The notes beneath the pieces are model-generated. The model did no database searches. It saw only the letters and a program-made list of their open reading frames with translations, and was not told where the DNA came from. From contig JBBIJD010000001.1 in assembly GCA_037446135.1 (NCBI GenBank), positions 27,156-91,155 of the forward strand: a stretch of DNA of 64,000 bases. The letters are read 5' to 3'. The position numbers were made by a program, and so were the translations under genes. Below, piece after piece: positions 19,437 through 27,471 of this stretch. Source of the DNA: Candidatus Fraserbacteria bacterium. Its GTDB lineage: Bacteria > Bipolaricaulota > Bipolaricaulia > RBG-16-55-9 > JANLFV01. How positions within the stretch are numbered: the first letter of the stretch is position 1; the number at the start of each line of letters is the position of its first letter.

Positions 19437-19958
19437 CTAGGCGCTCGTCAGGGTGTAGACGATCTGGAGGGTATAGCTCCCCGGTGGGTCCTCTTCCCAG
19501 GCGAGGAGGACCCTGAAATGGGTATTCACGAGGATATTATTCCCTCTATTCCCCGCGGCCACCTGGACTTCGTTGATGGTCATCCCGGTATAGTCGGGCT
19601 GGGTCGCGGTCACTCGCGGGTCGGTGGAGGAGGACTTCCACTCCAGATCTTCACAGGGCTTATTCGGGTCCGGCCAAGTCCCAGTGTAAGTCCAAGTCGG
19701 GGCTGTGGCCCAGACATTGACCTGCCAGTTGACATTGCTCCTGACTTTGAGCGTCTGGGCGGGAGAGATCTCCTTATAGCCCCTCTCGTAGTCGTCTGCC
19801 GTCAGGTCCCCGAAGTCGACGAGATTGGGGTCCACCGTCAAGCGGAGAGCCGCTAGCGCGGTCGCTTGAACAGTCGTATTTTGGCTTGTCTGGGCCAAGC
19901 CCGCAAGGCCGAGGAGCAGAACCAAACCTGCTGCCAGAAGCCATCTCAATCTTGCCAT
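19437..19958 (-). CDS. Small secreted beta-rich protein, paralog A of a three-member family (pilin/SCPU-like or WxL-like C-terminal strand)
   Basis: 173 aa. Signal peptide MARLRWLLAAGLVLLLGLAGLAQT. Thr/Ser/Asn-rich. C-terminus PGSYTLQIVYTLTSA matches paralogs B (PGDYSITLEYTATSL) and C (PGDYHVTLTYTITTD). Confidence 0.8.
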   Translation of the reverse strand: MARLRWLLAAGLVLLLGLAGLAQTSQNTTVQATALAALRLTVDPNLVDFGDLTADDYERGYKEISPAQTLKVRSNVNWQVNVWATAPTWTYTGTWPDPNKPCEDLEWKSSSTDPRVTATQPDYTGMTINEVQVAAGNRGNNILVNTHFRVLLAWEEDPPGSYTLQIVYTLTSA

Positions 19959-19984: not shown

Positions 19985-20060
19985 GTGGCTTCGGCAGCCT
20001 GGCAGTCCGTGGAGGACCCACGGCTTTGCGCCCCCATGTCGCCATGGGTTCGCCTTTTCG
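19985..20060 (-). promoter_or_regulatory. GEMM-like (c-di-GMP-I class) riboswitch motif in the 5' UTR of paralog A
   Basis: RNA sense: AAGGCGAACCC-[CCCAUG GCGA CAUGGG]-GGCGCAAAGCC-[CCGUGG guccu CCACGG]...GGCUGCCGAAGCC. Shows the GEMM hallmarks GGCAAACC and GGRCGCAAAGCY around a P1 hairpin with a GNRA tetraloop, then P2. The same architecture occurs twice upstream of paralog C with compensatory changes in the P1 stem. Confidence 0.7.
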
Positions 20061-20075
20061 GTCCACTTAAACAAT

Positions 20076-20211: not shown

Positions 20212-20754
20212 TTACAGAGAGGTTGCGGTGTATTCCAGGGTGATGCTGTAATCTCCGGGGATGTCCTGTTCGTCCGAGGTATACTTGTAGGCCATATGGA
20301 AGTAGGCCGCGCCCGGCTTCTCCCCGGTCCCGGCCTTCATCATCTGATTGAATCCCGGGAAGCTGACATAGCTCCCCTGGTAGCCGCTGACATTCCCCTC
20401 GACTTTGGCGACCTTCCAGGCGAAGTCAGCGAGGATGTCCCCTTCAAAGCCCGGAGGGGTGGTAGCCTCGACGGCCTGGACGGCCAGGACATAGCCGTTA
20501 TGGCAGTTGGTCCTGAGGGAGACGATGTTCCCTTCGGTGTCCTCTAGGATCTGATCCGGCCCGGTGATCGTCCCCAGGAAGACATCCTGGTGGACATTGA
20601 GGGTGATCCAACAGTTGGCATTCCAGTAGACCGTGGTCTTCCCGCCGTCCCCGGCCCCGAGGGAGATCGTCCCCCAGAGGGCCGCGATCGCTAATGCCGC
20701 GAGGGTCGCTACCTTCAGGGTCTTTCCTATTCTCTTCATCGGTGTTACCTCCAT
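20212..20754 (-). CDS. Small secreted beta-rich protein, paralog B
   Basis: 180 aa. Signal peptide (MKRIGKTLKVATLAALAIAALWG). C-terminal PGDYSITLEYTATSL. No riboswitch upstream; instead an 11-bp-periodic TGGAAr repeat array. Confidence 0.8.
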   Translation of the reverse strand: MEVTPMKRIGKTLKVATLAALAIAALWGTISLGAGDGGKTTVYWNANCWITLNVHQDVFLGTITGPDQILEDTEGNIVSLRTNCHNGYVLAVQAVEATTPPGFEGDILADFAWKVAKVEGNVSGYQGSYVSFPGFNQMMKAGTGEKPGAAYFHMAYKYTSDEQDIPGDYSITLEYTATSL

Positions 20755-20895: not shown

Positions 20896-22158
20896 TTAGG
20901 GCTTCTTAGCAGGGAGGGCCCTGGCCCCTCCGAGCCGCTTTGCCCGGTAGAGGGCCCGGTCGGCCTGCTCGATCAGCTCGTCCGGCGAGGCCCCGTCCTC
21001 GGGGAAGCCGGCCACTCCGGCGCTGAAGCTGGCCCTGAAGGGCTCGGATTGCTCAGGGGCTTGGAACCGCTGCTCATGGAACTCCCCTTGGAGCCTGGTC
21101 AGGGCCGCCACGGCCCGGGGCTTGATGGTCTCGGGGAGGATGAGGGCGAACTCATCCCCGCCGTAGCGGGCGGGTAGGTCGCTCTTCCGTCCCTTGGACT
21201 TGATGAGCTCGGCCAGGGCCTTCAGGACGGAGTCGCCCATCCGATGGCCATAGCGGTCGTTGATCGCCTTGAACCGGTCGAGGTCGAGGAGGGCCAGGGA
21301 GAAGACCCTTCCATACCTTCTGCTCCGCTCGAGGGTGCAGCGGAGCTTCTCCTGGAAGGCCCGGTGGTTGTAGAGCCCGGTCAGGCCATCGAGGTCCGCC
21401 AGCTCGGTGAGCACCCGGTTCCGCTCGAGCCGGGCGGCGATCCGGGCGATCAGCTCCTCAGGGTAGAACGGCTTAGTGATGTAGTCGTCCGCCCCGGCCT
21501 CCAGGCCCCGGACCTTGGTCGCCACATCGCCCCTCCCGGTGAGGAAGAAGATCGGGAGCTTCTGGAACTCCACCTCCCGGCGGAGGGAGGCGCAGAGCTC
21601 CAGTCCGGTCAGCTTCGGCATCTCGATGTCCAGGAGCAAGAGGTCCGGCTTGAACTCCCTCAGGGTTGAGAGCGCCTCCGTCGGGTCTTGCAAGGCCTTG
21701 GTGGCGAACCCCGCTTGGCGGAGATGCCCCCCGACGAGCTCCAAGAGGTGAGGATCATCATCGACGATCGCGATCCTCAAGCGGTCGCCTCCTCCCTTTG
21801 GCTCTTGCTCAAGCTCGAACTTGAGCCCAAGCGCCGCTTCGGCCCGCTGGAGCTCCTCCTCCAGCTCGCGAAGGAGGGCCCGGAGCCTTCCCAGTTCCGG
21901 GGCGGCCAGCGGCCTGTTCTGAAGCTGGAGGGCCTCTTCCATCTCCTGAGCCAGCTCGGAGAGCCGAGGGTAGCCGTAGGAGCCGCCGCTCCCCTTGAGC
22001 CGATGGGCCCGCTCCAAGAGGGCCGCCATGGGGGCTTCAGCCTGAGGATCGGCCTCGAGGTCATTGAGCAACTGTCCGAAGAGGTTGAGGGCCCCGCGGA
22101 CCTCCTCGAGGTAGAGCCTTCGCAAGCCCTCCAATCCTTCTTCCATAGGTTCCACCAT
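20896..22158 (-). CDS. Hpt-REC-GGDEF signalling protein (diguanylate cyclase with receiver and N-terminal histidine phosphotransfer domain)
   Basis: 420 aa. Hpt HxxKG motif (ERAHRLKGSGGSYG). REC (IAIVDDDP...LLLDIEMP...DDYITKPF). GGDEF with intact active site RYGGDEF and a putative I-site (RRYGRV...). Confidence 0.9.
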   Translation of the reverse strand: MVEPMEEGLEGLRRLYLEEVRGALNLFGQLLNDLEADPQAEAPMAALLERAHRLKGSGGSYGYPRLSELAQEMEEALQLQNRPLAAPELGRLRALLRELEEELQRAEAALGLKFELEQEPKGGGDRLRIAIVDDDPHLLELVGGHLRQAGFATKALQDPTEALSTLREFKPDLLLLDIEMPKLTGLELCASLRREVEFQKLPIFFLTGRGDVATKVRGLEAGADDYITKPFYPEELIARIAARLERNRVLTELADLDGLTGLYNHRAFQEKLRCTLERSRRYGRVFSLALLDLDRFKAINDRYGHRMGDSVLKALAELIKSKGRKSDLPARYGGDEFALILPETIKPRAVAALTRLQGEFHEQRFQAPEQSEPFRASFSAGVAGFPEDGASPDELIEQADRALYRAKRLGGARALPAKKP

Positions 22159-22181
22159 TGGGAAGGATAAGGCCCTCAGGC

Positions 22182-22220
22182 TGGAATATCGATGGAAGTG
22201 GGCTGGAAATCTGATGGAAG
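22182..22220. promoter_or_regulatory. Four TGGAA(T/G/A) direct repeats at 11-bp spacing upstream of the Hpt-REC-GGDEF gene
   Basis: cTGGAAT atc gATGGAAG tgg gcTGGAAAT ctg ATGGAAG. TGGAA cores at 22182, 22193, 22204 and 22215, located 25-65 nt upstream of the GGDEF start codon and just after the RR stop. Confidence 0.5.
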
Positions 22221-22227
22221 CGGGGGG

Positions 22228-22905
22228 CTACCCCGCCAACTTATACCCGAACCCGCGGACGGTGAGGATCAGTTCGGGGTTCTGCGGGTCCCGCTCGATC
22301 CGCTTGCGGAGGAGGTAAATGTATTTTTGCACATCGCCGGGGCGGGCGAAGCTGCTCCCCGGCCAGAGATGGTCGATGATCTCCCGATCGGAGAAGACCC
22401 TCCCCCGCTCTGAAGCTAAGAGGAGCAGGAGCTCATACTCCTTGGGGGAGAGGCTCACCACCTCTCCTCGGACCTGGACGGTCTTGCTCTTATCGTCGAT
22501 GGTGAGCGGCCCGACCTCAATGAGCGCCTCTTTCGGGGCCGCCCCGGCCCGCCGGAGGACCGCCTCGATCCGGAGGGCCACCTCCATGAGGTCGAACGGC
22601 TTCCTGATATAGTCGTCGGCCCCGAGGGTGAACCCCTGGATCGTATCTATCGGCGAGTCCCGGGCGGTGAGCATCAGCACTGGGGTGGAGCTGCCTTCCC
22701 GGATCCGCCGGAGCACCTCCCAGCCATCCATCCCCGGGAGCATCACATCGAGGAGGACCAGGTCCGGCCGCTCCTTAGCGAAGGCCTCCAGGGCCTTTGG
22801 GCCGTCCTCGGCGGTGAGGACCTCATACCCGCGGGAGCTGAGGAAGGCTCGGAGGAGCCTCAAGATATCAGGGTCGTCATCGACGAGGAGGATCTTCTTA
22901 GCCAT
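22228..22905 (-). CDS. OmpR-family response regulator (REC + winged-helix)
   Basis: 225 aa. KILLVDDDP...LVLLDVMLPGMDGW...DDYIRKPF, plus trans_reg_C (LSPKEYELLLLLASERGRVFSDREIIDHLW...TVRGFGYKLA). About 60% identity by eye to the second RR at 39014. Confidence 0.95.
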   Translation of the reverse strand: MAKKILLVDDDPDILRLLRAFLSSRGYEVLTAEDGPKALEAFAKERPDLVLLDVMLPGMDGWEVLRRIREGSSTPVLMLTARDSPIDTIQGFTLGADDYIRKPFDLMEVALRIEAVLRRAGAAPKEALIEVGPLTIDDKSKTVQVRGEVVSLSPKEYELLLLLASERGRVFSDREIIDHLWPGSSFARPGDVQKYIYLLRKRIERDPQNPELILTVRGFGYKLAG

Positions 22906-25075
22906 CCTGATCAGTCAGTCCTCCGTCCAGCCCGAGCTTGAGCCAGCTCTTGGAGAGCGGGAGCCTGACGGTGAACTTCGTCCCCGCATTCGGCTTGCTC
23001 TCGACCCTGATCTCCCCGCCGTGACGGTCGATCGTGGCCTTGACGATCGCCAGCCCCAGGCCGGTCCCCGTGGCCTCCCGGACATAGGGGTTGGTGGAGC
23101 GGAAGAACCTGGTGAAGAGCCGGCCGAGCTCCTCCGCGTCCATCCCGATCCCGGTATCCGTGACCTCGACGATCGCCTCCCCGGCCACGGTGTCGGCCCG
23201 GGCCCGGAGGCTCACCTTCCCCTCCTTGGTGTATTTGATGGCATTGGAGAGGAGGTTGGCGAAGGCCCGAGCGAGGTAGTCGGCATCACCTTTGACCTGG
23301 AGCCCTTCCTCCAGCTCGACCTCCAGGGCCAATCCCTTCTCCCGGGCATTGACGGCGAAAGTGGCGGCCACATCCCTCAAGATTTCGTCGAGCGCGAGGT
23401 CCCTTAGCTCGATCTTCCGCTCCCCCGACTCGAGCCGCTCGATGTCCAGGAGGTCGTTGACCAGTTTGGTCAGGCGGTCGGCGTTCCGGGAGATAACCTG
23501 GAGGAACTCCTCCTGGGCCGGATTGAGGGGGCCGGTCTCCCCGGCCAAGAGGAGGTCGGCATACCCTTTGATCGAGGTGAGCGGGGTCCGAAGCTCATGG
23601 GAGACGGTGGCGAGGAACTCGGCCTTCAGTTGCTCCAGTCGCTTCTGAGCGGTGATATCCCGCATCATCCCTTGATAGCCCACCAGCCGCCCCGCGCTGT
23701 CCTTGATGGCCACACTGATCTCGTGGACCGTCCTCATTGAGCCGTCCTTGTGCTTATACGCTAGTTCCATGTCTACATAGCCGTCCCGCGCCAGTCGCCG
23801 GTGGAACTCCTCCCGCTGGGCCGGGTCGGCATAATTCTCGCAGAGGTCCATCCGGATCAGCTCCTCTTCCCTGTAGCCGAGAAGCTTCCTCACCGCCGGG
23901 TTGACATCGACGAGTCGGCCTTGAGAATCGCAGACATAGATCACATCGGCGCTATTCTCGAAGAGGTTGCGGTAGCGCTCCCCTGAGCGGCGGAGTTCCT
24001 CCTCAGCTTGCTCGCGTCTAGCAAGCATCTCATTGATCGAGCGAGCCAGGCTCGCCAGCTCATCGCCCCCTTTGGAGGGGAGGCGGGCCGAGAGGTCGCC
24101 GCTCGCCGTGACCCGGCGGACAGCCCGCTCGAGTCGGGCCAGCTTAGCCAGGACACCCCTCTCGAGCAGGAGGAGGGCGGTGGCCGTGAAGACCAGGCCG
24201 ATGGTAGAGAGGGCCAACATGAAGTAGTTCAAGCTCGCCAGCCCTTGGCTGTAGATGGTCCGCGGGAGGTCCACCCTCAAGATGAGGGCCGGCTGGCCGT
24301 AGATATCTCGGAGCAGGGCATAGCCGGCGACCCGCTCCCGGTCGAGCCGCTGGACAGGGAGCGTCGTCGCCCCTGTCCCCGCTAAGAGGGCCGTGCGGGC
24401 CGCGGCGAAGGCCGGGTCTTCTAGGGCTAGTCCTGGCTCATCAACTCGCCGGAATGCTAGTGAGAGGTCCGTCAACTCCGCCAGTTGAGCGACCTTAGCA
24501 GCATCGAGGTAGCGGCCCATGATGAGCGAGCCCCGGCTCGGGCCGGTCTTCTCGCTGGTGAGGATCGGCCTGGCGGCCAAGAGGAGTGGCCCCTCCGCTA
24601 GAAGGAGGAGCCCAGTCAGCCCCTCTTTGGGAGGCTCCTCGCGGGGCCGGAGGAGCGGGCTCTCAGGGGTGAGACTGTTCAAGAGGCCCTCTGGGACTGG
24701 CACCTCCCTTCTCTCCTGGAGGTCGAAGGCCTTGGCGAAGACGATCCTCCCCGAGGAGTGGACGAAGACCATCAAGTTCAAGCCGAGCTCGCTGAAGGTC
24801 TGATCGACGAGGTTGGAGCGGATATACTCCGGATTGGCGTCCTCGATGAAGGCATAGGTATCGTCCCAACCGGCCCAATCGCCGACGAGGGCGCTCAGCT
24901 TGGCCTGGTCATCGGCTAGCGCGTTCAGGGTTCGCTCGACCTCCCTTCGGGTGGCCTGCTCTTCCAGGGCCAGGAAGCCCCCGAGGAAGAGCGACCGGAG
25001 GACGAGATACATGATGGCTACTGAGCAGAGGAGCACTGAGCCGATAGTGATCAGCGTCTTCTTCCGTAGGGTCAT
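22898..25075 (-). CDS. Sensor histidine kinase with extracytoplasmic sensor domain, HAMP, PAS, HisKA and HATPase_c
   Basis: 725 aa. N-terminal TM segment, ~270-aa periplasmic region, a second TM, HAMP-like linker, PAS (DVIYVCDSQGRLVDVNPAV), H-box (ATVSHELRTPLTSI), and N/G boxes (LSNAIKYT, DTGIGM, GTGLGLAIV). Confidence 0.9.
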   Translation of the reverse strand: MTLRKKTLITIGSVLLCSVAIMYLVLRSLFLGGFLALEEQATRREVERTLNALADDQAKLSALVGDWAGWDDTYAFIEDANPEYIRSNLVDQTFSELGLNLMVFVHSSGRIVFAKAFDLQERREVPVPEGLLNSLTPESPLLRPREEPPKEGLTGLLLLAEGPLLLAARPILTSEKTGPSRGSLIMGRYLDAAKVAQLAELTDLSLAFRRVDEPGLALEDPAFAAARTALLAGTGATTLPVQRLDRERVAGYALLRDIYGQPALILRVDLPRTIYSQGLASLNYFMLALSTIGLVFTATALLLLERGVLAKLARLERAVRRVTASGDLSARLPSKGGDELASLARSINEMLARREQAEEELRRSGERYRNLFENSADVIYVCDSQGRLVDVNPAVRKLLGYREEELIRMDLCENYADPAQREEFHRRLARDGYVDMELAYKHKDGSMRTVHEISVAIKDSAGRLVGYQGMMRDITAQKRLEQLKAEFLATVSHELRTPLTSIKGYADLLLAGETGPLNPAQEEFLQVISRNADRLTKLVNDLLDIERLESGERKIELRDLALDEILRDVAATFAVNAREKGLALEVELEEGLQVKGDADYLARAFANLLSNAIKYTKEGKVSLRARADTVAGEAIVEVTDTGIGMDAEELGRLFTRFFRSTNPYVREATGTGLGLAIVKATIDRHGGEIRVESKPNAGTKFTVRLPLSKSWLKLGLDGGLTDQDG

Positions 25076-25187
25076 CTATCTGCTTCTGGCCTCTCGGCCT
25101 GTATCGAGAAGGAATAATAAACCAATAAAGCCGGCCATTCAAGGCCGGCTATCCAACTCTGCTCTTACTCCTGGGCAAGCAGGGCTC

Positions 25188-25709
25188 TCAATCGGTGGTG
25201 ATGGTGTAGGTCAGGGTCACATGGTAGTCTCCCGGCCTATGATGCTCGCGGTCGAAGAGGATGAGGTAGTCCACCTCCACCTTTTGGCGCCCGCTCGGGC
25301 CATGAGCGATGACCTGATCGGAGTTGCTGACCGGGCGATAGGACTCGCTCCCCACGCGGAGCTGGAAGTCGCTGAGCGGCTTGGTGTAGCGGCCGTCATA
25401 GCTCCTTCCGAGGTCGGGCTCGGCGGCCCGGACCGCCAGCCTCCAGTGGACATTGCTGGCGGCGATGAGGGTGAGCGCCCTAGGGATCTCGCGGTAGCCC
25501 CGCTCCAGGTCCGCTTCGCTCGGCTGAGGGAGCACAAATGTCGTCGTGACGGCCTGGTCGGTCTGGCCCTCGAGTGAGAGGCGGGCGAAAGGGAGGACAG
25601 TCCAAGAGATCGTCGTCCTAGCGGAGTCACCTGTCCCTAGAGCCTGGGCACTGAGGAATAACGAGAGACCGAGAAGAAGCAAGCCGGAGATGACCGCTCT
25701 TCTTGCCAT
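25188..25709 (-). CDS. Small secreted beta-rich protein, paralog C
   Basis: 173 aa. Signal peptide MARRAVISGLLLLGLSLFLSAQA. C-terminal PGDYHVTLTYTITTD. Preceded by tandem GEMM-like riboswitch motifs. Confidence 0.8.
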   Translation of the reverse strand: MARRAVISGLLLLGLSLFLSAQALGTGDSARTTISWTVLPFARLSLEGQTDQAVTTTFVLPQPSEADLERGYREIPRALTLIAASNVHWRLAVRAAEPDLGRSYDGRYTKPLSDFQLRVGSESYRPVSNSDQVIAHGPSGRQKVEVDYLILFDREHHRPGDYHVTLTYTITTD

Positions 25710-25710
25710 C

Positions 25711-25790
25711 CTTCGGCAGCCCGGCGATCCCCGAGGGACCCGTAGCTTTGCGCCCCCACCTTGCGATGGGTTTGCCCTTATCGGGATGCG
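25711..25790 (-). promoter_or_regulatory. GEMM-like (c-di-GMP-I class) riboswitch motif, gene-proximal copy of a tandem pair
   Basis: RNA sense: AAGGGCAAACCC-[AUC GCAA GGU]-GGGGGCGCAAAGCUACGGG...GGGCUGCCGAAGG-AUG. The P1 stem CCCAUC/GGUGGG differs from the other copies (CCCGCC/GGCGGG and CCCAUG/CAUGGG) by compensatory changes, and all three loops are GNRA-type (GCAA, GAGA, GCGA). Confidence 0.7.
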
Positions 25791-25801
25791 TCCCTTCCTC
25801 G

Positions 25802-25905
25802 CCCTTCGGCAGCCCGGCTGCCCTTCACCTCCTTCCCCAATCAGCCAGTGTTAGGGCCCGTGGCTTTGCGCCCCCGCCTCTCGGCGGGTTTGCCCTTATC
25901 GGAGC
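25802..25905 (-). promoter_or_regulatory. GEMM-like (c-di-GMP-I class) riboswitch motif, distal copy of the tandem pair
   Basis: RNA sense: CCGAUAAGGGCAAACCC-[GCC GAGA GGC]-GGGGGCGCAAAGCCACGGGCCC...GGGCAGCCGGGCUGCCGAAGGG. Lies immediately downstream of the promoter at 25916-25945. Confidence 0.7.
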
Positions 25906-25915
25906 TCAGCGAAGG

Positions 25916-25945
25916 TATTATACACCGAGTGAGCGGGCTTGACAA
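25916..25945 (-). promoter_or_regulatory. Near-consensus sigma70 promoter (minus strand TTGTCA-17 nt-TATAAT) for the tandem riboswitch-paralog C transcript
   Basis: Minus-strand reading: ggcTTGTCAagcccgctcactcggtgTATAATacc. Overlaps the 3' end of the HD-GYP gene. Confidence 0.6.
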
Positions 25946-27471
25946 GCCCCTTCGGGCGGGGAAGGTCCTTTCGGGCTCAGATCCAGATTGTATCCCCTCT
26001 CGAAGAGCCGGAGGCAGGCCTCGCCAGCTTGGGGGTCGTAGAGCCGCCCCTTGTGCTTGGCGATCTCTCCCAAGGCCTCCTCGATGGCATGGGCCGGGCG
26101 GTAGGGCCGGTGAGAGGCCACCGCCTCCACCACATCGGCCACCGCTAGAATTCGGGCCTCGAGCATGATCTCTTCCCCCTTGAGCCCCCGGGGGTAGCCC
26201 GAGCCGTCGAGCCGCTCGTGGTGCTGGAGGACGATCTCAGCCACCGGCCAGGGGAAGTCGATCTGCCTCAAGACCTCATAGCCGGCCTGGGGATGGACCC
26301 GCACCAGCCCCAACTCGGCCGGATTGAGCCTCCCCGGCTTGCTCAGGATCTCCGCGGGGATATAGATCTTCCCGATGTCGTGGACCTGAGCGGCCATCCT
26401 GAGCCCGGCGATCCGGTCCTGAGGGAGGCCCATCTCCTGGGCGATCGCGCAGGCCAGCTCCGCCACCCGCCGCTGGTGCCCCGCGGTGTAGGGGTCCCGG
26501 ACCTCGACGGTGGTGGCGAGGACATCGACCATCTGCTCCAGGAGCCGCTCCAGCCGCTCATGACTCTCCCGGAGGGCCTCAAACAGCCGGAGGTTCTCCA
26601 AGGCCACAGCGGTGGCATTGGCCAAAGCCTCGAGGAGCTGGCAGTCCTCGGAGGTGAAGGCATTCAACTCCTGGCTCTCGGCGTTGAGGGCCCCGAGGAC
26701 CCGCTCCCCCGCCTTCAAGGGGACGCAGAGCTCAGAGCGGTTGGCGAACCGCCCCCCGACGAACCGTGGGTCCTTGGTCACATCCGGGAGGAGGATCATC
26801 TCCCCAGAGCGGGCCACGGCGGGGATGATCCCCCGCTCGCTAGCGAGGGGGAACTCCTCCGGGCCGGGGGGCCGTCCAAGAGTGTGGGCGACACAGATGA
26901 GCCGCTCGGCCTTCTCGTCCACTAGGAAGAGGCCGCAGTCCTCGAGCCCGAGGACCTCCCGGGCCGCCTCCACCGCCGCTTGGGCGATCTCCTCCTCGCT
27001 CCGGGAGAGGATCAACCTTCGGCCCAGGGCGTAGATCCCGGCCAGGCCCCGCTCGAGCCGCTTCCGCTCGGTGATGTCCCTCAGGATCGTCTGGAGGCCG
27101 ACGACCTTCCCCGCCTGCCTGATCGGGTTGCTCCGGTAGTCCGCGATCCTCGGCCCCTTGGGGGTGGTGAGCTCGATCTCCCCTTGGATCGGCTCCCCTC
27201 GGCTTATCCGGGCGAGCTCCTCGAGCAGCCGGGGATGGTAGCGCTCGGGGACGAACTCGAGCATATTCTTCCCGACCAGGTCCTCCTTGCGGAAGCCATA
27301 TTCTGCAGCGGCCCGGTTCACGGCCGTCACATTCCCTTCAAGGTCGAAGGTGACAATGACATCCCTAGCGTCCTCGAAGAGCTCGCGATAGGCCCCTTCC
27401 GCCCGCTCAAGCTCAGCCACCCGCAGCCGGAGCTGCTCGAGCTCTAACCCCTCTCGTGCCTCCGGTCTCAA
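25918..27471 (-). CDS. PAS-GAF-HD-GYP protein (c-di-GMP phosphodiesterase, HD-GYP class)
   Basis: 517 aa. HD motif (VHDIGKI) and HHERLDGSGYP (the GYP signature). N-terminal PAS and GAF regions. Confidence 0.9.
   Translation of the reverse strand: MRPEAREGLELEQLRLRVAELERAEGAYRELFEDARDVIVTFDLEGNVTAVNRAAAEYGFRKEDLVGKNMLEFVPERYHPRLLEELARISRGEPIQGEIELTTPKGPRIADYRSNPIRQAGKVVGLQTILRDITERKRLERGLAGIYALGRRLILSRSEEEIAQAAVEAAREVLGLEDCGLFLVDEKAERLICVAHTLGRPPGPEEFPLASERGIIPAVARSGEMILLPDVTKDPRFVGGRFANRSELCVPLKAGERVLGALNAESQELNAFTSEDCQLLEALANATAVALENLRLFEALRESHERLERLLEQMVDVLATTVEVRDPYTAGHQRRVAELACAIAQEMGLPQDRIAGLRMAAQVHDIGKIYIPAEILSKPGRLNPAELGLVRVHPQAGYEVLRQIDFPWPVAEIVLQHHERLDGSGYPRGLKGEEIMLEARILAVADVVEAVASHRPYRPAHAIEEALGEIAKHKGRLYDPQAGEACLRLFERGYNLDLSPKGPSPPEGACQARSLGV

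What the first reader, a model, noticed from the sequence alone, without database searches (positions are those of the whole stretch)
25711..25945. Tandem GEMM-like riboswitches behind a near-consensus promoter, with compensatory covariation in P1 across the three local copies
Two complete copies of the same ~80-nt motif lie head-to-tail between the promoter (minus strand TTGTCA-17-TATAAT at 25916-25945) and the start of 25188..25709. The P1 stems differ between copies but stay paired: CCCGCC/GGCGGG, CCCAUC/GGUGGG with a G-U pair, and CCCAUG/CAUGGG at the 20-kb copy. The loops stay GNRA-type (GAGA, GCAA, GCGA), and flanking single-stranded blocks (GGGCAAACCC, GGGGGCGCAAAGCY, GGCUGCCGAAGG next to the SD) are invariant. 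This is the signature of a structured, selected RNA rather than a DNA repeat. Tandem riboswitches give a more digital response to ligand; a tandem c-di-GMP pair on one paralog and a single copy on another suggests graded tuning within one protein family.
Basis: seen in the sequence. Interest (0 to 1): 0.9.

Follow-up and report, generated by a model that had tools for sequence, protein, structure and literature searches.

The report
Tandem c-di-GMP riboswitches before fibre gene
Two back-to-back copies of a well-known RNA sensor for the bacterial signal c-di-GMP sit in front of a gene for a small secreted, probably fibre-forming protein in an uncultured Bipolaricaulota bacterium. This is a genuine but largely ordinary example of a known regulator, with an unusually compact layout.

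Summary
Rfam finds three class-I c-di-GMP (GEMM-I) aptamers on the minus strand: 25903-25804 (76 bits), 25785-25711 (74 bits) and 20063-19989 (61 bits). The first two lie behind an 11/12 sigma-70 promoter and run straight into the ATG of ORF 25709-25188.

Rfam labels all three with the variant model RF03167 (c-di-GMP-I-GGC). That label misleads. At the position that separates the two models, all three copies carry the canonical A (CGCAAAGC), so c-di-GMP is the expected ligand.

The structure covaries strongly across 127 relatives. The tandem pair recurs in five other Bipolaricaulota/Acetothermia loci, four of them upstream of orthologues.

The target is a 173-aa secreted protein of an unannotated family. 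Its predicted fold best matches donor-strand-exchange fibrils and pilins. Nineteen of 21 metagenomic relatives with enough upstream DNA carry the aptamer.

The two aptamers are only 18 nt apart, with no terminator or start codon between them. They therefore share one translational platform: the extended P1 of aptamer 2 pairs with the start codon. I infer translational control, probably OFF with ligand, but the sign is uncertain.

Verdict: a new member of a known kind, of modest interest.

The parts
25917..25945 (-). Sigma-70-type promoter: TTGTCA (25945-25940), 17-nt spacer, TATAAT (25922-25917). The TAA inside the -10 box is also the stop codon of the upstream HD-GYP ORF. The inferred transcription start is near 25910.
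   Evidence: Sequence. The scan gives an 11/12 match, with 6 sites found against 1.0 expected. Both hexamers are conserved in L001, L003 and L130 although the upstream genes differ.
25804..25903 (-). Aptamer 1, a c-di-GMP-I (GEMM-I) aptamer of 100 nt. P2 is CCCGCC-GAGA-GGCGGG. P3 is long and has a receptor-like CCUAAC/GAAGG internal loop. Pocket equivalents are G20=25894, A47=25867 and C92=25809.
   Evidence: Rfam 76.2 bits, E 2.7e-16. Own covariance model 92.3 bits. The unconstrained fold recovers P2 and P3.
25825..25834 (-). AAGGAGGUGA, a perfect 10-nt complement of the canonical 16S rRNA 3' tail, lying in the distal part of aptamer 1's P3. Its role is unresolved.
   Evidence: It is conserved in L001, L003, L130, L134 and L010. 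The same motif sits 5' of the aptamer in more distant orthologues.
25786..25803 (-). An 18-nt purine-rich linker (GGCGAGGAAGGGACGCAU) between the aptamers. It has no terminator, no U-tract and no start codon.
   Evidence: Sequence. The terminator scan finds none in the leader. The linker is 13-19 nt in the orthologous tandems.
25711..25785 (-). Aptamer 2, a c-di-GMP-I aptamer of 75 nt. P2 is CCCAUC-GCAA-GGUGGG. P3 is short and has no receptor. Pocket equivalents are G20=25776, A47=25749 and C92=25716.
   Evidence: Rfam 74.4 bits. Own covariance model 93.4 bits.
25707..25716 (-). The 3' strand of aptamer 2's P1 running into the start codon (CCGAAGGAUG). GGAUG (25711-25707) pairs with CAUCC (25788-25784) as a 5-bp extension of P1. 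This is the inferred expression platform.
   Evidence: The extended P1 appears in both the MFE and the centroid of an unconstrained fold. With aptamer 2 enforced, GGAU is mostly paired (unpaired probability below 0.1 at 37 C and about 0.2 at 55 C); without constraint GAAGGA is 0.64-1.0 unpaired. The 5' strand GCAUCCCG is conserved in otherwise diverged linkers (L134, L130).
25188..25709 (-). The regulated gene: a 173-aa protein with a signal peptide (MARRAVISGLLLLGLSLFLSAQA) and an all-beta domain. It belongs to an unannotated family.
25119..25150 (-). Intrinsic terminator (AGCCGGCC-TTGAAT-GGCCGGCT followed by TTATTGGTTT). It closes a monocistronic unit.
   Evidence: sequence.
19989..20063 (-). 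The third, single c-di-GMP-I aptamer. P2 is CCCAUG-GCGA-CAUGGG. Pocket equivalents are G20=20054, A47=20027 and C92=19994. A normally spaced SD (AGGAGG, then 6 nt, then AUG) follows it.
   Evidence: Rfam 61.0 bits. Own covariance model 85.4 bits. It is conserved in L131 and L133.
19437..19958 (-). The paralogous 173-aa secreted protein controlled by the single aptamer. It is followed by a dockerin-like gene (19371-18358) and a 926-aa SdrD_B/PKD surface-protein gene (18280-15500).
   Evidence: The same gene order occurs in L131 and L133.
20896..27471 (-). The surrounding c-di-GMP signalling genes. They are a PAS-GAF-HD-GYP-type (Pfam HD_5) phosphodiesterase (27471-25918), a CHASE4-HAMP-PAS histidine kinase (25075-22898), an OmpR-type response regulator (22905-22228) and an Hpt-REC-GGDEF cyclase (22158-20896).
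   Evidence: Pfam. The kinase and regulator also follow the orthologous gene in L001 and L003.

Best explanation
The region is a monocistronic unit. It runs from the promoter (25945-25917) through a leader of about 200 nt and the ORF 25709-25188 to a terminator at about 25150-25119. The leader consists almost entirely of two abutting canonical class-I c-di-GMP (GEMM-I) aptamers.

Shown here:
- Both aptamers match the family's covariance models, and both have the c-di-GMP-contacting nucleotides.
- No terminator, U-tract or start codon lies between them.
- Aptamer 2 ends one nucleotide before the ATG.

Inferred:
- Control acts on translation initiation through a single expression platform.
- c-di-GMP stabilises the P1 of aptamer 2. 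Its 3' strand continues as GGAUG and pairs with CAUCC just 5' of the aptamer, burying the start codon and the abutting GAAGGA. High c-di-GMP therefore lowers translation. The sign is the weakest step, at roughly 55-60% OFF against ON.
- Aptamer 1 has no platform of its own. It most likely acts through the folding of the shared leader. Its 3' strand (CGAAGGG, GGCAGCC) is near-identical or complementary to segments of aptamer 2, so only when both aptamers are liganded is the native fold of aptamer 2 secured.

The regulated product is a secreted subunit with a donor-strand-exchange pilin/fibril-like fold. The unit thus couples c-di-GMP to the production of an extracellular fibre. A paralogue at 19958-19437 is under a single aptamer with a conventional downstream SD.
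For: Identity:
- Rfam gives E 1e-16 to 1e-12 for the three copies. They are the only three hits in the window with an independent model.
- Pocket nucleotides are G, A and C at the Vc2 G20/A47/C92 equivalents, and the interhelical C-G pair is present in all three. Roles of these residues are taken from PMC4744006 and PMC5888326.
- The RF01051 consensus is CGCAAAgC and the RF03167 consensus is CGCGAAgC. The window copies read CGCAAAGC.

Structure:
- In 127 relatives, 94.3% of cells are paired and 17 of 22 pairs show double changes.
- 0 of 500 shuffles reach any of the five measures. Slid controls pair at 32-47%.

Conservation:
- The tandem lies upstream of orthologues in L001, L002, L003 and L134, and in L130.
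- Single aptamers occur in L010 and L004.
- 19 of 21 metagenomic family loci with enough upstream DNA have the aptamer.

Platform:
- No terminator lies in the leader.
- The extended P1 CAUCC:GGAUG appears in the unconstrained MFE and centroid.
- SD/AUG accessibility drops when aptamer 2 is enforced.
- GCAUCCCG is retained in diverged linkers. In L130 the loss of one pair (GGA to AGA) comes with a new terminal G-C (GCAUC:GAUGC).

Context and target:
- GGDEF and HD-GYP genes flank the unit.
Against: - No ligand-binding or expression data exist.
- The direction of regulation cannot be read from sequence. Known c-di-GMP riboswitches before adhesin or pilus genes are mostly ON switches (Bc3-5, PMC4759541; Vc1, PMC4744006), which argues against OFF.
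- GAAGGA abuts the AUG, so it is not a normal SD. The only strong SD-like element (AAGGAGGUGA) lies inside aptamer 1, 116-125 nt upstream of the AUG. How ribosomes are recruited is therefore unclear.
- Minimum-free-energy folds of this GC-rich leader offer many alternative pairings, and z-scores are not significant.
- The role proposed for aptamer 1 has no covariation support, because the segments involved are invariant.
- The fold match of the protein is moderate. No sequence-level link to any solved structure was found, and no assembly machinery was identified.
Confidence: 0.75

Rival explanations
1. The same tandem c-di-GMP-I aptamers work as an ON switch. Aptamer folding would activate translation, for example by releasing the start region from long-range pairings of the unliganded leader. 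Alternatively, folding could set the geometry between the only strong SD-like element (AAGGAGGUGA in aptamer 1, or 5' of the aptamer in orthologues) and the AUG, forming a split ribosome-binding site.
For: - No properly spaced SD lies next to the AUG. A perfect 8-10-nt anti-SD complement is conserved in the leader in three different positions across lineages.
- In each lineage a helix can be drawn that leaves about 5 nt between the SD-like element and the helix, and about 5 nt between the helix and the AUG. These helices are CUUCGG:CCGAAG in the distant orthologues, and GGCAGCC:GGCUGCC in the window, as seen in the free MFE.
- Characterised c-di-GMP riboswitches before adhesin genes are ON switches (PMC4759541, PMC4744006).
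Against: - The start codon itself lies in the P1 extension of the ligand-competent fold.
- The juxtaposing helices use invariant aptamer sequence, so there is no covariation.
- Both liganded and unliganded folds can be drawn to juxtapose the SD-like element and the AUG, so the model does not predict a sign.
- A known alternative exists for an upstream SD-like element: a STAB-SD-type mRNA stabiliser (my own knowledge, Agaisse & Lereclus 1996; not retrieved here).
- Pairing of leader elements with the early coding region is no better than in synonymous-codon shuffles.
Confidence: 0.3
2. The aptamers belong to the c-di-GMP-I-GGC variant class (RF03167) and sense a different signalling molecule from c-di-GMP.
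For: RF03167 is the top-scoring Rfam family for all three copies and for all orthologous copies. To my recollection, the paper that defined the variant (Weinberg et al. 2017 PNAS, not held in the library) proposed that such variants may bind other signalling molecules.
Against: - The RF03167 consensus has G at model position 37 (CGCGAAgC). All window copies have A there, as in the RF01051 consensus.
- Aptamers from many phyla that all carry this A are labelled RF01051 or RF03167 almost at random, even within one tandem (L019, L094).
- The better RF03167 score is explained by that model's short P3, whereas RF01051 models a tetraloop-receptor extension.
- Lower-scoring matches to families of the same clan also passed their gathering score at each site but were hidden.
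- GGDEF and HD-GYP genes flank the locus.
Confidence: 0.05
3. These are two independent, complete riboswitches in series (the classical pseudo-cooperative tandem). Each makes its own transcriptional or translational decision, which gives the 'digital' response the first reader proposed.
For: Tandem c-di-GMP-I riboswitches are common: 347 doublets are listed under 'multiple expression platforms' in PMC9481103. The characterised Bc3-5 triplet works this way (PMC4759541).
Against: - Only 18 nt separate the aptamers. This linker contains no hairpin-plus-U-tract, no start codon and no ORF.
- The whole leader lacks any terminator-like site.
- A Rho-dependent or RNase-based decision after aptamer 1 cannot be excluded, but nothing points to one.
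Confidence: 0.1
4. This is a DNA-level tandem repeat or a decaying duplicate with no RNA function.
For: The two copies share long identical blocks.
Against: - The copies differ exactly where the family tolerates change, in stems with compensatory pairs and in loops. They agree at junction and pocket nucleotides.
- Each copy type exists as a single aptamer elsewhere: L010 resembles aptamer 1 and L035 resembles aptamer 2.
- The pair is conserved in loci whose proteins are only 56% identical (L134).
Confidence: 0.02

Closest known systems
c-di-GMP-I (GEMM-I) riboswitch, Rfam RF01051; prototype Vc2 of Vibrio cholerae
   Same: - A three-helix junction with a GNRA-capped P2.
- The GGCAAACC and CGCAAAGC junction blocks.
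- G20, A47 and C92 equivalents and the interhelical C-G pair.
- A 5'-UTR location.
- Association with surface or adhesion genes and with GGDEF and HD-GYP neighbours.
   Different: - P3 is short and lacks a receptor in aptamer 2 and in the 20-kb copy.
- G replaces A at the Vc2 A43 equivalent (GGGGGCGC). This change is common, occurring in at least 120 species-level genomes.
- The host is a candidate phylum (Bipolaricaulota).
c-di-GMP-I-GGC variant aptamer, Rfam RF03167
   Same: It gives the highest bit score for all three copies. It shares the compact P3 and the GCUGCCGAAG 3' end.
   Different: The variant-defining G at the A47 position is absent, because all copies have A. I therefore do not file these aptamers as members of the variant.
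Triple-tandem c-di-GMP-I riboswitch Bc3-5 of Bacillus thuringiensis (PMC4759541), and the pseudo-cooperative tandems catalogued in PMC9481103
   Same: Several aptamers of the same class lie in one 5' UTR ahead of a surface-protein gene.
   Different: In those cases every aptamer has its own terminator-type expression platform. Here the aptamers are 18 nt apart and share one translational platform.
Tandem-aptamer glycine riboswitch (two aptamers, one expression platform)
   Same: Two homologous aptamers abut each other, and a single platform follows the second.
   Different: It is a different aptamer class. No evidence exists here for inter-aptamer tertiary contacts or for cooperative binding.
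TLP-1a/b environmental fibrils (PDB 9IKJ/9IKK, PMC11494351) and chaperone-usher pilins (CsuA/B, FimA, PapA)
   Different: - Only 8-18% identity, with no sequence-level hit.
- The protein is 173 aa against about 237 aa for TLP-1.
- No chaperone or usher genes were seen nearby.
- Polymerisation is not shown.

Membership tests
c-di-GMP-I riboswitch (GEMM-I, RF01051 / clan CL00126) | Matches the family covariance model above the curated threshold | tested here: met
   Scores of 76.2, 74.4 and 61.0 bits fall on the sister model RF03167 of the same clan (gathering score 59). One further clan match per site also passed its gathering score but was hidden by the tool. The RF01051 gathering score is 35 bits. 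The exact RF01051 scores were not displayed.
c-di-GMP-I riboswitch (GEMM-I, RF01051 / clan CL00126) | A P1/P2/P3 three-way junction supported by covariation | tested here: met
   In 127 aligned relatives, 94.3% of cells are paired and 17 of 22 pairs have compensatory changes. No shuffle of 500 reaches the observed values, and slid controls pair at 32-47%. Among the local copies, P2 pairs 4-6 change as G-C to A-U, C-G to U-G or U-A, and C-G to G-C.
c-di-GMP-I riboswitch (GEMM-I, RF01051 / clan CL00126) | Ligand-contacting nucleotides G20, A47 and C92 (Vc2 numbering; PMC4744006, PMC5888326) | tested here: met
   G, A and C are present at 25894/25867/25809, at 25776/25749/25716 and at 20054/20027/19994. 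The mapping uses the constant offset of 10 between Vc2 numbering and the model positions. This rests partly on my recollection of the Vc2 sequence. It is consistent with the 27-nt G20-A47 spacing given in PMC4744006.
c-di-GMP-I riboswitch (GEMM-I, RF01051 / clan CL00126) | The interhelical Watson-Crick C-G pair between P2 and P3, described as universally conserved in PMC4744006 | tested here: met
   The C of GGGGGC-GC (model position 34) and the G of the (A/C/U)G bulge in the 3' strand of P3 (model position 66) are present in all three copies.
c-di-GMP-I riboswitch (GEMM-I, RF01051 / clan CL00126) | A GNRA tetraloop on P2, with a tetraloop receptor in P3 (type 1) or without one (type 2) | tested here: inconclusive
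   GNRA loops GAGA, GCAA and GCGA are present. Only aptamer 1 has a receptor-like CCUAAC...GAAGG internal loop. Aptamer 2 and the 20-kb copy have plain short P3 stems, which is compatible with type 2.
c-di-GMP-I riboswitch (GEMM-I, RF01051 / clan CL00126) | Selective binding of c-di-GMP and ligand-dependent gene control | not testable with these tools
   This needs in-line probing or ITC, together with reporter assays.
c-di-GMP-I-GGC variant (RF03167) | G in place of the intercalating A47 (consensus CGCGAAgC) | tested here: not met
   All three copies and all orthologues read CGCAAAGC. The cmscan alignment shows a mismatch at model position 37. The RF01051 consensus carries the A. The RF03167 label is also given to many A47-bearing aptamers.
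Pseudo-cooperative tandem riboswitch (independent complete riboswitches in series) | Each aptamer is followed by its own expression platform (terminator or RBS) | tested here: not met
   The 18-nt linker 25803-25786 has no terminator, U-tract or start codon. No terminator-like site lies anywhere in the leader.
Cooperative dual-aptamer riboswitch (glycine-type architecture) | [quoted passage not shown] | tested here: met
   The anatomy is given. The same abutting layout, with linkers of 8-19 nt, occurs in L001, L003, L130, L134, L019, L031, L049 and L063.
Cooperative dual-aptamer riboswitch (glycine-type architecture) | Inter-aptamer contacts and a Hill coefficient above 1 | not testable with these tools
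   This requires binding curves on single-aptamer and tandem constructs.
Donor-strand-exchange fibre/pilin subunit (regulated protein) | An incomplete Ig-like beta-sandwich similar to known DSE subunits | tested here: met
Donor-strand-exchange fibre/pilin subunit (regulated protein) | An N-terminal donor strand, and polymerisation into fibres | not testable with these tools
   Residues 24-40 have lower pLDDT (61-81) and are extended. This is suggestive only. No multimer modelling or experiment was done.

The most novel reading that the evidence does not exclude
The abutting aptamers may form a single two-ligand device with an unconventional expression platform. In this gene family the start codon has no local Shine-Dalgarno. 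The only strong one (AAGGAGGUGA) lies inside aptamer 1's P3 in the window lineage, and immediately 5' of the aptamer in distant orthologues. Aptamer folding or unfolding would then decide whether this SD and the AUG are brought together across a helix, forming a riboswitch-gated split ribosome-binding site. Either aptamer would be able to veto translation. A corollary follows from the paralogue at 19958-19437, which has a conventional SD after its single aptamer. The two fibre-subunit paralogues could respond to c-di-GMP with different thresholds or opposite signs.
Probability: 0.12. Interest if true: 0.7.

Novelty: new member of a known kind. Interest (0 to 1): 0.33.

Why it matters
- It places functional-looking c-di-GMP riboswitches, including a tandem pair, in the uncultured phylum Bipolaricaulota (Acetothermia).
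- It assigns a regulon to them: a widespread, unannotated family of small secreted proteins with a pilin/fibril-like fold. That family is almost always preceded by this aptamer, which gives a first functional handle on it (c-di-GMP-controlled extracellular fibres).
- It flags an annotation pitfall. Rfam's RF03167 'variant' label is assigned to many aptamers that have the canonical binding pocket.
- The compact layout of two aptamers with one platform recurs in several phyla. It is not the architecture that has been characterised for c-di-GMP-I, so it is a reasonable test case for whether such pairs bind cooperatively.

Tried and rejected
1. RF03167 membership was rejected. The variant-defining G is absent, and the label is non-diagnostic.

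2. I considered long-range pairing of the early coding region with aptamer 3' strands or with the SD-like element. This included an apparent 13-bp match, GCUGCCGAAGCCA:UGGCUUCUGGCAGC, at the 20-kb copy. In 2000 synonymous-codon shuffles the observed duplex energies were not better than chance (fractions 0.39, 0.96 and 0.81). I dropped it as evidence.

3. A 5' CCUUCG element pairing with CGAAGG was considered. It probably lies upstream of the transcription start and is not conserved in L001, L003 or L130.

4. An intrinsic terminator or uORF in the leader was sought. None was found.

5. The G at the Vc2-A43 equivalent (GGGGGCGC) was considered as a special feature. The pattern occurs in at least 120 species-level genomes across many phyla, so it is ordinary.

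6. Thermodynamic z-scores of the isolated aptamers are not significant (-1.9, +0.2 and -1.5). The support comes from covariation, not from folding energy.

7. Weinberg et al. 2017 (PMC5358364) could not be read. What I say about the naming of the GGC variant rests on the model consensus and on memory.

8. The AFDB fold library was unavailable.

9. Other aptamers with an upstream or in-aptamer GGAGG outside this gene family (L066, L012, L084) turned out to be spurious ORF calls.
Full report
**1. The observation**

On the minus strand, the sequence 25950-25700 reads as follows. It has TTGTCA (25945-25940), a 17-nt spacer and TATAAT (25922-25917). About 14 nt further on, a 100-nt element (25903-25804) begins, followed by an 18-nt linker and a 75-nt element (25785-25711). 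One G later comes the ATG of ORF 25709-25188. The promoter scan scores the site 11/12. It is the best of six promoter-like sites in 7 kb, where shuffles give 1.0.

Rfam at gathering threshold reports exactly three matches in the 64-kb window, all on the minus strand. They are 25903-25804 (76.2 bits, E 2.7e-16), 25785-25711 (74.4 bits) and 20063-19989 (61.0 bits). A covariance model I built from nine local and orthologous copies finds the same three and nothing else in the window.

Some details need correcting:
- The copies are 100 and 75 nt long.
- The 'invariant' blocks differ slightly in the 20-kb copy.
- GAAGGA touches the ATG with no spacer.

**2. Which family, and which ligand**

All three copies, and every orthologous copy, are labelled RF03167 (c-di-GMP-I-GGC) rather than RF01051. 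This matters because, as I recall, the RF03167 class was proposed as a variant with possibly altered ligand specificity. The defining paper is not in the library.

The two model consensus lines differ at one junction position. RF01051 has CGCAAAgC and RF03167 has CGCGAAgC. This position corresponds to A47 of the Vc2 riboswitch. G20, A47 and C92 are the three c-di-GMP-contacting residues (PMC4744006, PMC5888326). All window copies read CGCAAAGC, and the cmscan alignment shows a mismatch to RF03167 exactly there.

The equivalents of G20, A47 and C92 are:
- 25894, 25867 and 25809 in aptamer 1
- 25776, 25749 and 25716 in aptamer 2
- 20054, 20027 and 19994 in the 20-kb copy

The interhelical C-G pair is also present. 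A G at the first position argues against the cGAMP-sensing subclass, which has A there (PMC9481103).

To see whether the label means anything, I scanned 18 loci from other phyla that all carry CGCAAAGC by construction. Their aptamers were split between RF01051 and RF03167, even within a single tandem (L019, L094). The better RF03167 score has a simple cause: that model has a short P3, whereas RF01051 models a tetraloop-receptor extension. I therefore file the copies as canonical c-di-GMP-I aptamers.

The local G in GGGGGCGC (the Vc2 A43 equivalent) is ordinary. The pattern AACCC-N8-14-GGGGGCGCAAAGC occurs in at least 120 species-level genomes of many phyla.

**3. Is it a selected RNA structure?**

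Searching 100 sources with my model gave 127 aptamers. On their alignment:
- The named structure is 94.3% paired.
- 17 of 22 pairs have changes on both sides.
- None of 500 column shuffles reaches any of the five measures.
- Sliding the 3' partners by 1-3 columns drops pairing to 32-47%.

The alignment was fitted to the model, which favours the structure, but the margin is large. Unconstrained folding recovers P2 and P3 of aptamer 1. For aptamer 2 it recovers P2, P3 and an extended P1. The energy z-scores are unremarkable, so the support is comparative rather than thermodynamic.

**4. Source and conservation**

The downstream protein has a 92%-identical relative annotated from 'Candidatus Bipolaricaulia bacterium' and other hits in Bipolaricaulota/Acetothermia MAGs.

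- The tandem pair, promoter included, is conserved upstream of orthologues in L001, L002 and L003 (84-92% protein identity) and in L134 (56% identity).
- It also occurs in L130, where a different secreted protein follows it.
- Orthologues in L010 (56% identity) and L004 (44% identity) have a single aptamer.
- A metagenome scan with the family profile returned 24 loci. Nineteen of the 21 with enough upstream DNA have the aptamer directly upstream on the same strand. The two without it are the most distant relatives (28-31% identity).
- The 20-kb copy and its gene order are conserved in L131 and L133.

**5. What is regulated**

ORF 25709-25188 encodes 173 aa with a clear signal peptide. It has no Pfam or NCBIfam match. 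A profile search finds 751 representative relatives, so the family is sizeable but unannotated.

An AlphaFold2 model built on 57 sequences is confident (pLDDT 90.6) and all-beta after the signal peptide. Its best structural neighbours are:

There is no sequence-level link to any solved structure. I infer, but have not shown, that the product is a secreted fibre subunit.

The paralogue at 19958-19437 (31% identity) precedes a dockerin-like gene and a 926-aa SdrD_B/PKD surface-protein gene. A weak third family member (20754-20212) has no aptamer. Between and around these genes lie a PAS-GAF-HD-GYP-type (Pfam HD_5) gene, a CHASE4 histidine kinase, an OmpR-type regulator and an Hpt-REC-GGDEF gene.

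**6. How it probably works**

The unit is monocistronic, closed by a terminator at 25150-25129 plus a T-tract. The leader has no terminator-like site and no U-tract. The 18-nt linker cannot hold an expression platform. Control is therefore most likely translational, through one platform.

The 3' strand of aptamer 2's P1 (CCGAAG) continues as GAUG. GGAUG (25711-25707) pairs with CAUCC (25788-25784), which lies immediately 5' of the aptamer. Three observations bear on this 5-bp extension:
- It appears in the MFE and centroid of an unconstrained fold.
- Its 5' strand GCAUCCCG is retained in linkers that have otherwise diverged (L134).
- In L130, loss of one pair is accompanied by a new terminal G-C.

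In ensemble calculations GAAGGA is 0.64-1.0 unpaired without constraint. GGAU becomes mostly paired once aptamer 2 is enforced. The simplest reading is that ligand binding locks P1 and hides the start codon, making an OFF switch.

I rate the sign at only 55-60% OFF, for three reasons. Characterised c-di-GMP riboswitches before adhesin genes are ON switches (PMC4759541, PMC4744006). Ribosome recruitment here is unclear (see section 7). This GC-rich leader also offers many alternative folds.

Aptamer 1 has no platform. Its 3' segments (CGAAGGG, GGCAGCC) are near-identical or complementary to parts of aptamer 2, and the free MFE pairs GGCAGCC of aptamer 1 with GGCUGCC of aptamer 2. I therefore propose that aptamer 1 acts through the folding of the shared leader. 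No covariation supports this, because the segments are invariant.

**7. An unexplained feature**

A perfect anti-SD complement, AAGGAGGUGA, lies in the distal P3 of aptamer 1 (25834-25825). The octamer GGAGGTGA occurs 14 times in the window against 4.3 expected.

- The motif is conserved in L001, L003, L130, L134 and in the single aptamer of L010, although the opposite strand of P3 differs in L010.
- In the more distant orthologues the same motif (RGGAGGUGAGRCUUCGG) lies immediately 5' of the aptamer. There, CUUCGG is the exact complement of the aptamer's 3' end CCGAAG, which includes the C92 equivalent. The AUG follows the aptamer by 5-9 nt with no local SD.
- Across all collected aptamers, an upstream or in-aptamer GGAGG is almost exclusive of a strong local SD (22 of 24). 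These cases are phylogenetically related, so the count is weak evidence.

Possible readings are a STAB-SD-type mRNA stabiliser, a split ribosome-binding site gated by the aptamer, or a structural role. I could not discriminate between them.

A related idea was that leader elements pair with the early coding region. It failed a synonymous-codon shuffle test and is rejected.

**8. Comparison with what is known**

Tandem c-di-GMP-I riboswitches are the commonest same-class tandems. PMC9481103 counts 347 doublets and 12 triplets, and its Table 1 lists them under 'multiple expression platforms'. The one characterised case, Bc3-5, has a terminator after each aptamer (PMC4759541).

The window's layout is different: two aptamers and one platform, as in glycine riboswitches. 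It is not unique, though. Linkers of 8-19 nt occur in the Bipolaricaulota orthologues and in tandems from Solirubrobacterales (L019, L031), Anaerolineales (L063) and Christensenellales (L049). Whether such pairs bind cooperatively is untested.

**9. Verdict**

It is a new member of a known riboswitch class in a little-studied phylum. It has a clear and consistent gene association and a compact tandem architecture that has not been characterised for this class. Ligand identity is well supported by sequence. The mechanism is inferred, and the direction of regulation is open. Interest is modest, at about 0.33.

Noticed in passing
window 25825-25834 (-); L140/L004, L135-L153 just 5' of their aptamers; L010 2960-2975: A perfect Shine-Dalgarno-like AAGGAGGUGA is conserved in the leaders of this gene family. 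It lies inside P3 of the aptamer in the window lineage and immediately 5' of the aptamer in distant orthologues. The real start codons have no normally spaced SD. The function is unknown: an mRNA stabiliser, a split RBS, or a structural element.
   Followed up: partly
L135-L153, L140: the 6 nt before each aptamer, paired against the aptamer's 3' end: In distant orthologues, CUUCGG directly upstream of the aptamer is the exact complement of the aptamer's last six bases, CCGAAG, which include the C92 equivalent. This is a candidate anti-aptamer helix competing with P1. The sequences are nearly invariant, so there is no covariation test.
   Followed up: partly
Rfam labels across L013-L130: RF03167 (c-di-GMP-I-GGC) outcompetes RF01051 for many aptamers that have the canonical A47. 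Even the two halves of one tandem get different labels. Automated annotation with the clan competition will therefore over-call the 'variant' class.
   Followed up: yes
L010 3667-3817; L134 1827-1875 and 1883-2019: Downstream of the orthologous gene lies a composite element. A truncated GEMM-like 5' half (P2 hairpin plus CGCAAAGC) is followed at once by a complete aptamer whose P3 carries an insertion of about 70 nt. This could be a nested or degenerate tandem.
   Followed up: no
L130 428-606 (-) and downstream: A nearly identical promoter and tandem leader drives a different signal-peptide protein (MLQNGPARRSLKRAFLLLFL...). That protein does not match the 173-aa family profile. The riboswitch module appears to be reused in front of other secreted proteins.
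   Followed up: partly
window 25188-25709 (-), 19437-19958 (-), weakly 20212-20754 (-): The regulated proteins belong to a large unannotated family (751 representative relatives). Their predicted fold is closest to the TLP-1 fibrils found by cryo-EM in pond water, whose source organism is unknown. This family may be a distant relative of those fibrils.
   Followed up: partly
window 25917-25922 (-): The stop codon (TAA) of the upstream PAS-GAF-HD-GYP ORF (27471-25918) lies inside the TATAAT -10 box of the riboswitch promoter. The promoter is therefore embedded in the 3' end of that gene, and read-through transcription from it is possible.
   Followed up: no
window 19986-20001 (-) versus 19931-19944 (-): The 3' strand of the 20-kb aptamer (GCUGCCGAAGCCA) can pair over 13 bp, with one bulge, with codons 6-10 of its ORF. 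This is conserved in L131 and L133. However, synonymous-codon shuffles give equally good duplexes (p = 0.39), so it is not evidence of function.
   Followed up: yes
L019 2597-2775, L031 4325-4500, L063 1236-1453 and 3362-3577, L049 7168-7347: Abutting c-di-GMP-I aptamer pairs, with only 8-14 nt between them and hence no room for an intervening platform, occur in Solirubrobacterales, Anaerolineales and Christensenellales. The architecture of two aptamers with one platform is therefore widespread for this class.
   Followed up: partly
L062 2001-2087: A c-di-GMP-II-GAG variant hit (RF03169, 52.7 bits) lies in Acidaminobacter hydrogenoformans, on the same fetched stretch as a c-di-GMP-I aptamer.
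   Followed up: no
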